64,000 nucleotides of DNA from Octopus vulgaris (Eukaryota): assembly GCA_951406725.2 (NCBI GenBank), contig OX597842.1:17980001-18044000 (forward strand), read 5' to 3'. Position numbers and translations under genes: made by a program. Positions within the stretch are counted from its first letter, which is position 1; every line of letters begins with the position of its first letter. The notes beneath the pieces are model-generated. The model was not told the origin of the DNA, searched no databases, and saw nothing but the letters and a program-made list of their open reading frames with translations. This document shows positions 25,001-63,602 of the stretch, in pieces.

Positions 25001-28000
25001 ATCCTGAGCAAGATGTGGAACGAGGAATCGAACCGGTTCACTCAGCTTTCTTTGAAATAAATAAATGTCTTTCCTGAAAAATCCTGGAAACTTCTGGAAT
25101 GCACCTCCTTTTTCTTTAAGTTCCTATTGGTGTCACAAAAAGTTTACACAGATATGACCGTCATCAGTTGAGGCCCGACCGTCTGCTAAATTAAATGCGC
25201 CTAAGCGTAAGCGGCCCTTATCAATGGGAGAAATCCAGTCGTAAACAGATGATTTAAACAGCGATGAAGAAGTGTTTTTCTGATTTTCTTTCATCATCAA
25301 TTGAAGCAGATGATGTTGAAAACGATGTTTTAGATAATACAGAAAAAAATAATGCTTCAACTAGCTCTGGATGGAAAAAGTGTACCGATTCTTCTCCATT
25401 TGTTTAAGACCAACAATTATTTTAGTTTTTGTGCTTAATTTAATGAAAATAAATATAAAAATTAGCTTTATGAAAAAGAGATTTTTTCGATTATTGTCCG
25501 TTTGTCACACACATTCATGCAACCCTTTCCCGCCGTTTAAGGGTTAACATCTTGTTTGTATACTTACATTATTTATTGCTGATCCAGGTACAAGCTGGCA
25601 GAAAGTATTTGAGATGACCCCAAATTCATTTAAGAAAAGCCCTATTTATTTTTACTGGGAAGACGTGCCTATTGAAAAGGTAATGAATTTTTAGAATTTC
25701 GAGATGATTCTCATTGAATAACCAATCTACATATTTGTTGCTGTTTTACAATAATTACTAGCGTTTTCTTTTAAATGTTTAATTTCAGCTTCTGATGTTT
25801 GTTTCATTTTTAAAATCTATCTTTTTTTGTTAGCAAGTTTTTTTGGCGGGGTTTCACGATAGAACTAGATCCAGACTAATTTTCCTTCTAAATTTCAATG
25901 GAATATTGTGCAGCGTTTTCATTTGGCGGCAAGAGTGTTGCTATGAAATATACTTGACGCATAGAAACCTATTCCTCTCGTGTTTATATCTCCTTTTTTT
26001 CTGTTTCTATTTGATCCTTTATTCTCCCCCCGTGGTCCGGGATCATGGGGCATGATTTCCCCATGCTTTTTCGTTGCAATTTTACCCCGGATCGGGCTGC
26101 AACCCCATTTGATCCTTCGTTACGCTGTCGTACTGTCAAGCGTCTCTCCGCTTTGTCATCCCTCTTTCTGGATTGTCAGCAAGTCCTTCCCTGCAGTCAG
26201 TATCTGAGGAACTTCAACCGTGTTTCGTGGTCTGCTACCACAACAGCTCCTTTATAGGATCCAGTTAGCTCAAGACGTTATCAGAAGGAACCACGTCCGG
26301 TTTCGGCCCCTACTCCTCTACCGTTTTGACGTGGCGAGGGCCCCCTCTTTCGGAGGTGTCTTCAGCTCTGGTGTTGGGTGCATGTCTTCTTTCTTCTTCT
26401 TTCTTCTGTTCCCTGGACTCTTCGATGTATCGTCAGCGAGTGTCAGCGGGCGACTGTCTCGCATTTTGAAAGGAAGAGGTGAAAGGATGAAATTTAGGTC
26501 GAGATTTGTGAATATGTAGATGGGGTGGCAAAAATAAGAATGCTTTTCCCTCGAGACGAACTTCAGAACAGGATATAAAGTTACACCCCACCAGGGCCAA
26601 AATATCATGATGGACATAACTACACGCGTACCTACCCCCAACACCTGGCCAGAAACTACTATCCCTCTGACATCCGCTCCACACGTCCATGAAAAATGCT
26701 GTTCAAATGTCCCGCTTCTTGGTGTGACGTCACTTCCCCTTCCGGTCCTGACGTCTCCCTTCATTCCTCCCCAGAATATCAATGTGACATTGTTGATGGG
26801 AGAGTGATTCTTGTTGTTTTTATCTTTTGTTTTTGTCCTGGATTTTGTCAGGGTCTTCTACTTCCCACAGATGCAACGAAACTTTTTACAAAGACTCCGA
26901 AATCCCGACTCATTATTTATTAATCCGATTCTCTGTCTCATAAATCCAAACTCTTTCTCGCCATCTTAATCTTGCACTTCATTCGCTACTTTGTATTTCA
27001 TCCTCTCACTTTCACTCCCTCTCTCTCTCCTTTCCCTCCGTCTCCTCCTTTTTCACAACTTCTCTAATCTTCTTCTCTTTTACTCTGAAACTCTCTCATA
27101 CTCTTCCTCCACTTTTCTTTATATCTCCTTCTCATCCCTCCTACTCTCTTCCTATATCACAACCCAGTCCCCTTTCTCTTTCCTCCCTTATTCTTTTAGA
27201 TTCTTTACTGATCCGAGTCAACTTTCTGTTTTCAGGTGAAATTTCAGTTGAACGGAACACTTCTAAATCTCACGTTTATTTTCGACGGCAGAGGGACGAC
27301 TTCTACATCGTGGTTCCAACAAGATAAACTCATTTCAGGTCCAACTGGCTCTCTTTCATCAAACTATACGTTCAATAACAAGTATGTATATATTATCTTC
27401 TTATTCATTATTTACCTCTTTAATGATTTAATGATAATAAAAATAATGATTTCTCACATAGGTATAGAATCACATATTTTAAGGCAAGGTGAAGTCGATT
27501 TTGTTACTTTATTATTGGGTTGGCCGTTTTTAAAATTTTAATTTTTTAAAAGGTTTAATATAAAATAACTAATTAATCAATATTGTATTCACCCTTATTG
27601 TTTACAACTTCTTCCCAACGTTCAACAAGATTTTCAATACCGCGTTGGTAGAAATCACACGACTTCGACTCAAAAAATTAATCCAACCAAGCTCTCAATA
27701 CTGCATCAGTATTGAACGAAACTCCGCGCATAGCATTTGAAAGAGGTCGAAAGAGGTGGAAATCCGTTGGTGCCAAATCAGGAGAGTACGGCGTGTTTGG
27801 CAGCACTTCCCAGCCATGCGTTTGAATGGCTTCCTTGGTCATATTGGCGATATGAGAGCGAGTGTTGTCGTGCAGCAGAAGAACTCCATGCTGACGATTA
27901 GGTCTTTTCTCTTGAATAGCCGTGTTGTCGTTCCATCTGTTGAACATAGAGTTCCGCGTTGACCGTTTGGTTCCGTTCAAGCAATTCGTAATGGATAATC

Positions 28001-61200: not shown

Positions 61201-63602
61201 TTGAGCTGAAATTCTACCAAAGCCATACCTGCCTTCCATTATTTTACGGTCGGTAAAATAATAGCAATAAAGTAAGTAATAAAATCGATTTCACCTTTGC
61301 CTTAAAATAGGTGATTCTGTACCTGTGAGAGAAATCATTATTTTTATTATCATTAAATCATTAAAGAGGTAAATAATGAGTCAGAAGATAATATATACAT
61401 ACTTGTTATTGAACCTATAGGTTAGTGAATAAGAATTAAATGAACTTGAAATGACTTCATTTTGTTTGAACCACGATGTAGAAGTCGTCCCTCTGCCGTT
61501 GAAAATAAACGTGGAATTTCTCTGTGTTCCGCTCAACTGAAATTTCACCTGAAAACAGAAAGTTGACTCGGATCAGTAAAGAATCTAAAAGAGTAAGGGA
61601 GGTAAGAGAAAGGCGACTGAGTTGTGATATAGGAAGAGAGTAGGAGGGATGAGAAGGAGATATAAAGAAACGTGGAGGAAGAGTGTGAGAGAGTTTCAGA
61701 GTAAAAGAGAAGAAGATTAGAGAAGTTGTGGAAAAGGAGGAGACGGAGGGAGGGAGGAAGAGAGAGGGAGTGAAAGTGAGAGGAGGAAATACAAAGTAGC
61801 GAATGAAGTGCAAGATTAAGATGGCGAGAAAGAGTTTGGATTTATGAGACAGAGAATCGGATTAATAACTAATGAGTCGGGATTTCGGAGTCTTTGTAAA
61901 AAGTTTCGTTGCATCTATGGGAAGTAGAAGACCCTGACAAAATCCAGGACAAAAACAAAAGATAAAAACAACAAGAATCAATCTCCCATCAACAATGTCA
62001 CATTGATATTCTGTGGAGGAATGAAGGGAGACGTCAGGACCGGAAGGGGAAGTGACGTCACGTCAAGAAGCGGGACATTTGAACAGCATTTTTCATGGAC
62101 GAGTGGAACGGATGTCAGAGGGATAGTAGTTTCTGGCCAGGGTAGCTACTCATGTTGGTATGTCCATCATGTGCTTTTGGTCCTGGTGGGGTGTAACTTT
62201 ATACCCTGTTCTGAAGTTCGTCTCGAGGGAAAAGCATTCTTATTTTTGCCACCCCATCTACATATTCACAAATTTCGACCTTTCATCCTTTCACCTCTTC
62301 CTTTCAAAATGCAAGACAGTCGCCCGCTGACACTCGCTGACGAGACATCGAAGAGTCCAGGGAACAGAAGAAAGAAGAAGAAAGAAGACATGCACCCAAC
62401 ACCAGAGCTGAAGACACCTCCGAAACGGTAGAGGAGTAGGGGCCGAAACCGGACGTGGTTCCTCCTGATGATGTCTTGAGCTAACTGGATCCTATAAAGG
62501 AGCTGTTGTGGTAGCAGACCACGAAACACGGTTGAAGTTCCTCAGATACTGACTGCAGGGAAGGACTTGCTAACAATCCAGAAAGAGGGATGACAAAGCG
62601 GAGAGACGCTTGACAGTACGACAGCGTAACGAAGGATCAAAAGGGGTTGCAGCCCGATCCGGGGTAAAATTGAAACGAAAAAGCATGGGGAAATCATGCC
62701 CCCATAATCCCGGATCACGGGGGGGGGGGAATAAAGGATCGAATAGGAACGGAAAAAAACGAAATGGACTTGGACCGGAAATGGACAATGAGAAAGGAAA
62801 CGGTAAAGGAATGGTAGATGAGGAGTTCAGCTGCTGCGGAAAGGTGTTTGCTAGGCACATATAAATAATGTATTACAAATGTTTACAGAAACCAACGTTC
62901 TCACTCCATGTGTAAATACAGCCATCGAAACACGTTCCATATCAAAACTAAACCAAACCTTGAAGCAATCACAAAAAAGGGGCCAGACAATTAAATTAAA
63001 ATCCTTATCATTCACTCCAAGTTCTTATTCGGGGAATAAGTGCTTTGAATTTGTTGTAGAAAAATCGATAAAACTCACGTGTGTAAATGTCACGAAAAAC
63101 AGAAACATACAAACCGATACCCGGCGAAAATGATGAAAATCTAAATAAAAGGCCGGACCTTAGTCCCCAAATCTCGCTAGTGAAACAGAAAAAAAGGAGA
63201 AATAAATACGAGAGGAATAGGTTTCTATGCGTCGTGTATATCTTATAGCAACACTCTTGCCGCCAAATGAAATCGCTGCACAATATTCCATTGAAATTTA
63301 GAAGGAAAATTAGTCTGGATCTAGATCTATCGTGAAACCACGCAAAAGAAACTTTGCCAACATAAAAAGATAGATTTTAAAAATGAAACAAACATCAGAA
63401 ACTGAAATTAAACTTTTAAAAGAAAACATTAGTAATTATTGTAAAACAGCAACAAATATGTAGATTGGTTATTCAATGAGAAACATCTCGAAATTCTAAA
63501 AATTCATTACCTTTTCAATAGGCATGTCTTTCCAGTACAAATAAATAGGGCTTTTCTTAAATGAGTTTTCGGTCATCTCAAATACTTTCTGCCAGCTTTT
63601 AC
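55218..63602 (-). CDS. Paralog C: exons 3-6 at 63511-63602, 61403-61548, 60257-60360, 55218-55267; exons 1-2 expected beyond window end
   Basis: Same lengths (92/146/104/50), phases and splice sites as B; open frame to TAG. Confidence 0.85.
58190..60220. repeat. ~2-kb (TATG)/(TGTG) compound microsatellite
   Basis: Direct inspection; source of the long YVCM pseudo-ORFs. Confidence 0.95.
60257..60360 (-). CDS. Gene C exon 5 ([34 protein letters not shown])
   Basis: ttagtttcag acceptor, G/gtaagt donor, 104 nt. Confidence 0.85.
61403..61548 (-). CDS. Gene C exon 4 ([48 protein letters not shown])
   Basis: ttttcag acceptor, AA/gtatgt donor, 146 nt. Confidence 0.85.
63511..63602 (-). CDS. Gene C exon 3 ([30 protein letters not shown])
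   Basis: atacttag acceptor, AAG/gtaatg donor, 92 nt. Confidence 0.82.

What the first reader, a model, noticed from the sequence alone, without database searches (positions are those of the whole stretch)
25588..63602. Hypervariable exons inside well-conserved palindrome arms: diversifying selection between paralogs B and C
Seen, by manual codon alignment of B vs C: exon 3 has 5 replacement and 1 synonymous codon differences (30 codons); exon 4 has 17 and 0 (48 codons); exon 5 has 16 and 3 (34 codons). Adjacent introns look about 90-95% identical by eye, so exons 4-5 have diverged faster than introns while keeping frame, length and splice sites. Changes cluster in patches ([12 protein letters not shown] vs [24 protein letters not shown] vs [12 protein letters not shown]), and N-glycosylation sequons turn over (B NGT/NLT/NYT vs C NST). 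Established: this pattern typifies immune-recognition, venom and gamete-recognition proteins. Inference: the C-terminal domain has a variable ligand-binding surface in an arms race.
Basis: partly seen in the sequence, partly recalled or inferred. Interest (0 to 1): 0.9.

Follow-up and report, generated by a model that had tools for sequence, protein, structure and literature searches.

The report
Octopus secreted proteins with hypervariable loops
This is part of a large, apparently undescribed octopus gene family whose likely secreted proteins keep one end nearly constant while four loops at the other end have diversified under strong positive selection, likely giving a repertoire of different binding surfaces, possibly for recognising microbes.

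Summary
The codon counts are exact (exon 3 5/1, exon 4 17/0, exon 5 16/3). Exons 4 and 5 differ 17% and 25% between B and C, against 4.6% in introns. Exon 3 does not differ from introns, and B versus C alone cannot show dN>dS (p=0.19).

B and C belong to a tandem array of about 20 close paralogs, with 65 PAN-exon matches genome-wide. They encode ~240-aa proteins: signal peptide, PAN/apple domain and an unnamed ~130-aa beta domain. In two separate clades (7 and 14 genes), exons 4-6 have omega 2.7-2.8 overall. This holds in tree-free, multi-hit and hot-spot-aware tests, strongly in the 14-gene clade and moderately in the B/C clade. PAN and exon 3 have omega 0.55-0.77. Selected sites fall in the same four patches in both clades. 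No donor for C's patches was found. 8 of 22 genes are broken, and 5' and 3' halves are shuffled.

The 'palindrome' is an ordinary inverted duplicate. The C-domain only faintly resembles fibrinogen/TLDc folds. Tissue and ligand are unknown; microbe recognition is the likeliest role (~45%).

The parts
16087..16099 (+). Gene B exon 1, coding part (start codon, 4 codons, phase-1 donor); lies in an inverted repeat with gene A's exon 1
   Evidence: matches the N-terminus of the O. sinensis homolog P0001; inferred, no spliced read seen
23261..23593 (+). Gene B exon 2: predicted signal peptide + PAN/apple domain (constant module)
25588..25679 (+). Gene B exon 3: first strand and helix of the C-terminal domain; not hypervariable (omega 0.70-0.77)
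27236..27381 (+). Gene B exon 4: variable patches L1 and L2
31091..31194 (+). Gene B exon 5: variable patches L3 and start of L4
34747..34796 (+). Gene B exon 6: last strand and stop codon; B is an intact 240-codon frame from the exon-2 ATG
55218..55267 (-). Gene C exon 6
58124..58188 (-). Orphan copy of the 3' end of an exon 5 plus donor site, 88% like C's own and with a different L4 patch, separated from C exon 5 by a 2-kb (TATG)n array
60257..60360 (-). Gene C exon 5
61403..61548 (-). Gene C exon 4
63511..63602 (-). Gene C exon 3; its exon 2 lies just past the window end (window-equivalent 64979-64647); C is intact, 240 codons
9368..9380 (-). Gene A exon 1, coding part
6122..6451 (-). Gene A exon 2: older, divergent signal peptide + PAN exon (50% aa identity to B)
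1111..3222 (-). Gene A exons 3 (3222-3131), 4 (1886-1740, one extra base, frameshifted as assembled) and 5 (1214-1111); type II 3' half; exon 6 lies just before the window start
8635..16718 (.). Inverted repeat (78-95% identical blocks) holding the head-to-head first exons of A and B
24213..41822 (+). Left arm of the B/C inverted duplication
48761..64000 (-). Right arm of the B/C inverted duplication; continues past the window end

Best explanation
B and C are two members of a tandemly expanded octopus family of predicted secreted two-domain proteins whose C-terminal domain has four patches under diversifying selection, likely forming a variable binding surface that most likely recognises microbial or parasite ligands. 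SHOWN: the array, the exon structure, omega>1 in exons 4-6 of two clades, omega<1 in PAN and exon 3, the shared positions of selected sites, many broken copies, and exchange of 5' halves between old 3' types. INFERRED: after duplication each copy's loops change by point substitutions plus short conversion tracts among neighbours; some variants then persist (near-identical in O. sinensis) while others decay (birth-and-death). The four patches likely meet at the pole farthest from PAN, and PAN likely acts as a constant docking or effector module. That the ligand is microbial is the weakest step. Odds: variable binding surface under selection ~0.85; immune role ~0.45.
For: M0 omega 2.65 and 2.80; M2a vs M1a 2dL 63 and 121.5, with 29% and 41% of sites at omega 10.7 and 6.9. 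The result holds for intact genes only, with gaps masked, with F1x4 and with per-exon trees. Tree-free pN 0.20 vs pS 0.11 and 0.10, with 0 of 2000 bootstraps reversed. It survives multi-hit models (2dL 47, 87) and a site class with free synonymous rate (omega 3.0, p=2e-4; omega 6.2, p=2e-11). Neutral hot-spot + shuffling simulations gave M0 omega at most 1.86 of 22 and 1.38 of 12. Six sister pairs give 53 replacement to 6 synonymous single-base codon changes (p=0.004). 17 of 25 type-I selected sites coincide with type-II sites (p=0.002). Selected sites sit in and beside four inter-strand loops of the model. Hydropathy shows one N-terminal hydrophobic stretch and no later one. The best Foldseek hit of the domain is L-ficolin (E 0.08), and distant homologs are fused to C-type lectin, Sushi, EGF and ZP domains. 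Cephalopods have few C-type lectins (PMC10140915, passages) and under a dozen C1qDC proteins (PMC6835236, passages), which leaves room for another recognition family.
Against: No expression, tissue or ligand data were obtained. The fibrinogen-like resemblance is weak and tied with TLDc (Z 4.2-4.9, none >=5), and the calcium/disulfide features of ficolin-type lectins are absent. In the B/C clade the hot-spot-aware statistic (12.8) only just exceeds the largest of 22 null values (12.6), and variable sites have ~5x synonymous rate. Plain M1a/M2a tests gave false positives up to 2dL 53 under a hot-spot null. Two of six sister pairs show exon divergence no greater than intron divergence. Clustering of the patches on one pole was deduced from hairpin topology, not measured on coordinates. 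Selected sites show no strong aromatic enrichment. The likelihood code is my own, checked only by simulation.
Confidence: 0.48

Rival explanations
1. Prey-directed salivary or venom-gland proteins diversifying against many prey targets.
For: Secreted, tandem, positively selected families are typical of venoms (established knowledge). PAN-fold proteins occur in leech saliva (leech anti-platelet protein Z 7.2, saratin Z 4.0).
Against: No match to a known toxin in Pfam or PDB searches. None of the verified O. bimaculoides family identifiers that I searched appears in the readable (cut) supplement of an O. vulgaris posterior salivary gland proteome. That is weak evidence; two unverified neighbouring LOC numbers do appear.
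Confidence: 0.15
2. Reproductive recognition proteins (sperm, spermatophore, oviducal gland, egg coat) under sexual conflict.
For: Extreme omega is common in molluscan gamete proteins (recalled). A distant amphioxus homolog is fused to a ZP domain. The O. bimaculoides members tested have no counterpart above ~70% in exon 4.
Against: Divergence is mainly among paralogs within one genome: 6 of 10 O. sinensis members have a 96-100% identical exon 4 here. That is unlike species-isolating gamete proteins.
Confidence: 0.14
3. Skin, sucker or mucus ligand-binding proteins for chemosensing, adhesion or self/non-self marking.
For: PAN modules mediate adhesion and glycan binding in the structural matches. 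A constant-plus-variable design suits a carrier repertoire.
Against: Family peptide motifs were not found in the readable (cut) supplements of ink and skin-mucus proteomes (weak). Omega classes of 3-11 are more typical of antagonistic coevolution (established knowledge).
Confidence: 0.15
4. Non-adaptive: relaxed constraint on loops plus local hypermutation or conversion, with introns homogenised by conversion.
For: 8 of 22 genes are broken. Exon pS (~0.10) is about twice the flanking intron p (0.05). The variable class in the B/C clade has ~5x synonymous rate. The background class is near omega 1.
Against: Neutrality caps omega at 1, yet overall omega is 2.7-2.8 and exceeds all 34 null simulations. 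In type II, exon dS tree length (0.53-0.55) is close to the intron tree length (0.43-0.49). Signal is at least as strong in intact genes (omega 3.0, 3.2). No donors were found.
Confidence: 0.08

Closest known systems
Bivalve C1qDC families (PMC6835236, passages read)
   Same: Secreted, tandemly duplicated, ongoing expansion, episodic positive selection on a beta scaffold
   Different: Unrelated domain; there 4-11 selected sites per cluster and the rest purifying, here 25-39 of 99 codons and overall omega near 3
Gastropod and bivalve FREPs / fibrinogen-related lectins (ficolin, tachylectin-5, FIBCD1, intelectin)
   Same: N-terminal small module plus a C-terminal domain with weak full-length fibrinogen-like topology (Z 4.2-4.7)
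   Different: PAN instead of Ig or collagen; no Pfam Fibrinogen_C match; no cysteines in the C-domain of 11 of 12 intact genes and no recognisable calcium loop; diversity is germline and paralogous
PAN/apple domain proteins (HGF N-domain, apicomplexan microneme lectins, leech LAPP)
   Same: N-terminal domain has the PAN fold (HGF N-domain Z 9.8, rmsd 2.1, 77 aligned)
   Different: Here PAN is the conserved, homogenised module and is followed by an unnamed domain
Unnamed mollusc/cnidarian/amphioxus domain (Dreissena PAN fusions P0048/P0053; Branchiostoma P0029)
   Same: Sequence homology and predicted structure TM 0.77-0.80; the same PAN + domain order in bivalves
   Different: The octopus C29/C8/C4 form is ~50 aa shorter and has lost the cysteine-bearing loops; the ancestral form survives in a separate C28 array
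Antibody V domains / amphioxus VCBP / sea-urchin Trf (recalled, functional analogy only)
   Same: Several hypervariable loops on a conserved framework with a constant partner module; mosaic shuffling among paralogs
   Different: No Ig fold and no evidence of somatic diversification

Membership tests
PAN/apple domain proteins | PAN fold with conserved cysteines | tested here: met
   VIA-align Z 9.8, rmsd 2.1, 77 aligned to the HGF N-domain, with the top 25 rows aligning to this region (model of O. sinensis homolog P0005); 8 Cys in exon 2
PAN/apple domain proteins | Pfam PAN_1/PAN_4 above the curated cut-off | tested here: inconclusive
   16-18 bits against cut-offs 21.4/27 for B and A; more distant homologs pass
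Fibrinogen-related domain (FReD) lectins / FREPs | Pfam Fibrinogen_C sequence match | tested here: not met
   No match for single exons or full-length homologs; no fibrinogen-family chain among the 18 PDB sequence hits of the A2 profile
Fibrinogen-related domain (FReD) lectins / FREPs | FReD fold | tested here: inconclusive
   7 of the top 12 rows are FReDs at Z 4.2-4.7, rmsd 3.5-4.9, tied with TLDc at 4.6-4.9; Foldseek L-ficolin E 0.08, TM 0.42
Fibrinogen-related domain (FReD) lectins / FREPs | Calcium site joined to the S1 acetyl pocket by a disulfide (FIBCD1 Asp393/Asp395, Cys401-Cys414; PMC3908420 passages) | tested here: not met
   C-domain has 0 Cys in 11 of 12 intact genes and 1 in the twelfth
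Fibrinogen-related domain (FReD) lectins / FREPs | N-terminal IgSF domain(s) of FREPs (definition recalled) | tested here: not met
   The N-terminal domain is PAN
Diversified invertebrate immune-recognition families (functional class) | Secreted, tandemly expanded, birth-and-death, positive selection | tested here: met
   (secretion predicted from hydropathy only)
Diversified invertebrate immune-recognition families (functional class) | Expression in immune tissue, induction, microbe binding | not testable with these tools
   RNA contig laying was swamped by repeats and showed no exon-exon joint among the listed rows
Cephalopod venom toxins | Presence in posterior salivary gland secretion | tested here: inconclusive
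   Verified family identifiers absent from one cut proteome supplement
Arm-to-arm converting palindromes (sex-chromosome type, recalled) | Near-identical arms that are each other's closest copies | tested here: not met
   Arms differ 4.6%; B is closer to another paralog (1.4%)

The most novel reading that the evidence does not exclude
Octopuses carry a germline, antibody-like recognition repertoire on a scaffold with no solved structure. It would comprise over 100 secreted proteins (C29/C8/C4 arrays plus the C28 sister array) in which four CDR-like loops diversify under selection and are recombined with a shared constant PAN module. It would stand in for the C1qDC and C-type lectin expansions that cephalopods lack.
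Probability: 0.25. Interest if true: 0.9.

Novelty: new variant of a known kind. Interest (0 to 1): 0.72.

Why it matters
Cephalopods lack the large lectin expansions of other molluscs, so their source of recognition diversity is an open question. This family is one concrete candidate: large, unannotated ('uncharacterized' in the protein records returned), and with an unusually strong selection signal (whole-exon omega near 3, 25-40% of codons selected). Tissue RNA-seq and ligand screens can test it directly. Whatever the partner turns out to be, it marks an unrecognised molecular conflict in octopus. It also offers a compact, cysteine-free ~130-residue scaffold that naturally tolerates four randomised loops.

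Tried and rejected
- First candidate for exon 6 (window 31542-31585) was a conserved intron stretch; homolog C-termini located the true exon at 34747.
- Expression: no RNA holder on record was listed. Laying four guessed-RNA contig sets was dominated by repeats, with no exon-exon joint among the listed rows. No inference was drawn.
- Literature: nine searches for this family or for octopus context found no paper describing it. The library lacks most subscription journals.
- Proteome supplements: ink (PMC10142993) and skin mucus (PMC10138644) held no family motif; salivary gland (PMC7693380) held no verified identifier. All three files were cut when stored, and PMC11431876's supplement was too large to read, so unseen rows could bear on tissue. 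LOC106867730 and LOC106879019 occur in the salivary table, but I could not verify that they belong to the family.
- Earlier scan findings: none.
- No solved structure matches the C-domain at Z>=5 or Foldseek E<=0.001; this does not prove a new fold.
- M1a/M2a alone was rejected as sufficient evidence after hot-spot simulations (that run timed out before the type II hot-spot case, which one search covers with a different test).
- C28 sister array: exon-4 equivalent omega 0.60 (12 genes). Exon-5 equivalent omega 1.41, 2dL 11.6 in a 6-gene subclade, but exon p 0.111 is about equal to intron p 0.121; weak only.
- Donor-cassette (pseudogene conversion) model: no exact outside donor was found for type I patches.
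Full report
OBSERVATION. The window is G000:C29:17980001-18044000 of a 2.8-Gb genome. Its nearest named proteins are uncharacterized Octopus sinensis and O. bimaculoides records. It holds three paralogs: A (-), B (+) and C (-). B and C are intact 240-codon frames over exons 2-6, preceded by a 4-codon exon 1 (found for A and B), with AG/GT boundaries. 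The splicing is predicted from homology, not seen in reads. Intron divergence is 129/2802 = 4.6%; exon 4 differs at 25/144 and exon 5 at 25/102 (p 4e-8, 3e-11), while exon 3 (7/90) and exon 6 (1/45) do not differ from introns. B vs C alone gives pN 0.22 vs pS 0.14 over exons 4-5, which is not significant (p 0.19). The arms (24213-41822 vs 64000-48761) are an inverted duplicate; B's nearest paralog is a gene ~60 kb upstream with 1.4% intron difference.

FAMILY. The PAN exon has 65 matches among 93 candidates scored: 44 on C29, 18 on C8, 2 on C4, 1 on C7, some being fragments. Twenty are >=84% identical and lie within C29 16.94-18.05 Mb. I annotated 22 genes (those 20, A, and one A-like gene). 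Twelve are intact (one through an alternative exon-6 acceptor), 8 carry stops, frameshifts or a lost acceptor, and in 2 exon 6 was not found in the 20 kb fetched. Some homopolymer frameshifts could be assembly errors. The genes fall into 3' types: type I (7, including B and C), type II (14, including A) and one further type left out of the codon tests. The ~40 more distant matches were also not tested. Types I and II differ 36-40% in exons 4-6 and ~31% in the 3' part of intron 3, yet only ~7% in exons 2-3 and ~5-7% in the first 330 bases of intron 3. So one 5' module has spread over old 3' modules, or the reverse. Loop patches are also shared patchwise within clades. A sister array gives 64 exon matches on C28 (70 of 89 candidates genome-wide) and keeps the longer cysteine-containing ancestral form.

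SELECTION. All tests used my own MG94-type likelihood code. For exons 4-6 (99 columns), M0 omega is 2.65 (type I) and 2.80 (type II). M2a beats M1a by 2dL 63.2 and 121.5, and M8 beats M8a by the same margins, with 29% of sites at omega 10.7 and 41% at 6.9. The result holds for intact genes only (4 and 7 genes; omega 3.04, 3.24), with gap neighbourhoods masked, with F1x4 and with per-exon trees. PAN exon omega is 0.55/0.68 and exon 3 is 0.77/0.70; type II exon 3 has a small selected class (p 0.007). Tree-free pN/pS is 0.203/0.112 and 0.195/0.098, against flanking intron p 0.05. Multi-hit models keep 2dL 47 and 87. A neutral hot-spot null can fake M2a significance (2dL up to 53 in 10 simulations), so I fitted a class with free synonymous rate. 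Type II gave omega 6.2, alpha 1.4, 2dL 45; type I gave omega 3.0, alpha 4.8, 2dL 13.5. Under hot-spot-plus-shuffling nulls, the observed M0 omega exceeds all 22 (max 1.86) and all 12 (max 1.38) simulations. The hot-spot-aware statistic is 42.7 vs max 4.7 for type II, but only 12.8 vs max 12.6 for type I. Six sister pairs that I picked from the trees give 53 replacement to 6 synonymous single-base codon changes (expected synonymous share 0.25, p 0.004; 19 multi-base codons left out); two of those pairs are barely diverged in exons. Selected sites overlap between clades (17 of 25, p 0.002), and partitions defined by the other clade give omega 2.4 and 5.2. C's L2 and L3 patches have no match within 6 mismatches in 46 other held loci, and its exon 5 has no genome match above 87%. 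Donors that were lost or lie on another haplotype cannot be excluded. Six of 10 O. sinensis members have a 96-100% identical exon 4 here, two are at 86-88% and two have no close counterpart; the O. bimaculoides members tested reach at most ~70%. The loops are therefore germline, can persist across close species, and the repertoire turns over.

PROTEIN. Hydropathy shows one N-terminal hydrophobic stretch and none later, so the proteins are predicted to be secreted and soluble. The model of homolog P0005 (pLDDT 86.7) has a PAN domain (HGF N-domain Z 9.8, rmsd 2.1, 77 aligned). The C-domain model (pLDDT 93.4) has no Pfam family and no solved match at Z>=5. TLDc and fibrinogen-like domains lead the list at Z 4.2-4.9 over the full length, L-ficolin leads Foldseek at E 0.08, and Atlas neighbours include Fibrinogen_C/COLFI clusters below 0.9. 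Homologous longer domains occur in bivalves (with PAN) and amphioxus, and fused to EGF, Sushi, ZP and C-type lectin domains. Selected sites map to four patches in and beside inter-strand loops. Strand-hairpin geometry suggests L2, L3 and L4 meet at one end; adding L1 and placing that end away from PAN rests on analogy to the fibrinogen fold (inference). Among 10 intact genes, median identity is 87% for the PAN exon and 48% for exons 4-5. Sequon numbers vary from 2 to 6, probably as a by-product of loop change.

MECHANISM AND RIVALS. The most likely reading is a birth-and-death repertoire of secreted binders, with a constant PAN module and a variable C-terminal face, driven by a changing biological partner. 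I put microbial or parasite recognition at ~0.45-0.5, then salivary/prey, skin/sucker and reproductive roles at ~0.15 each, and a non-adaptive process under 0.1. Nothing here shows tissue or ligand.

COMPARISON. It works like bivalve C1qDC and FREP-type expansions but is not a member of either: the FReD sequence, disulfide and Ig features were tested and not met, and the fold test is inconclusive. Papers seen: PMC6835236, PMC10140915 and PMC3908420 (passages); PMC7693380 (abstract, outline, part of a cut supplement); PMC10142993 and PMC10138644 (searches in cut supplements); PMC11431876 (listing only). Nine searches found no description of the family in the open library. Analogies to antibodies, VCBP, Trf, gamete proteins and sex-chromosome palindromes are recalled.

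VERDICT. It is a new architecture within a known class of diversified recognition families, with its function untested. Interest 0.72.

Noticed in passing
G000:C28:28412-2258501 and 14.59-14.64 Mb (L089-L110): Sister array of about 64 exon matches encoding the longer, cysteine-containing ancestral form of the same unnamed domain, with variation in the equivalent loop; weak selection signal
   Followed up: partly
window 58124-60219: A 2-kb (TATG)n array separates C's exon 5 from an orphan 3' half of another exon-5 variant with its own donor site; possibly a scar of unequal exchange
   Followed up: partly
window 8635-16718: Inverted repeat carrying the first exons of A and B head to head at up to 95% identity, although their PAN exons are only 50% identical in protein: upstream regions look homogenised
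   Followed up: partly
window 43535-46000: Fragmented LINE-type endonuclease/reverse transcriptase ORF in the spacer between the arms (recognised by eye from the translation)
   Followed up: no
window 46950-48186, 42101-42748, 1-619: Tandem arrays of SINE-like units (138 bp x9; 181-231 bp x2) and a 38-bp x16 minisatellite
   Followed up: no
window 27600-28640: Mariner-like transposase remnant inserted in B intron 4 and absent from C (translation recognised by eye; gap in alignment)
   Followed up: no
window 46772-47000: Short C2H2 zinc-finger-like fragment in the spacer
   Followed up: no
P0016 (O. sinensis); G000:C8:78.1-78.9 Mb: One annotated homolog has a PAN domain followed by two copies of the C-domain; a separate, older array of ~17 genes lies on C8
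   Followed up: no
L017/L047 and paralogs, exon 2 codons 55-67: A two-state patch in the PAN domain is shared across both 3' types and looks like a conversion tract; it raises B/C exon-2 divergence to 9.4%
   Followed up: partly
P0001, P0012 (O. sinensis records): Their C-termini match intron sequence or an off-frame intron stretch of the paralogs here, so these public gene models are probably mis-spliced
   Followed up: partly
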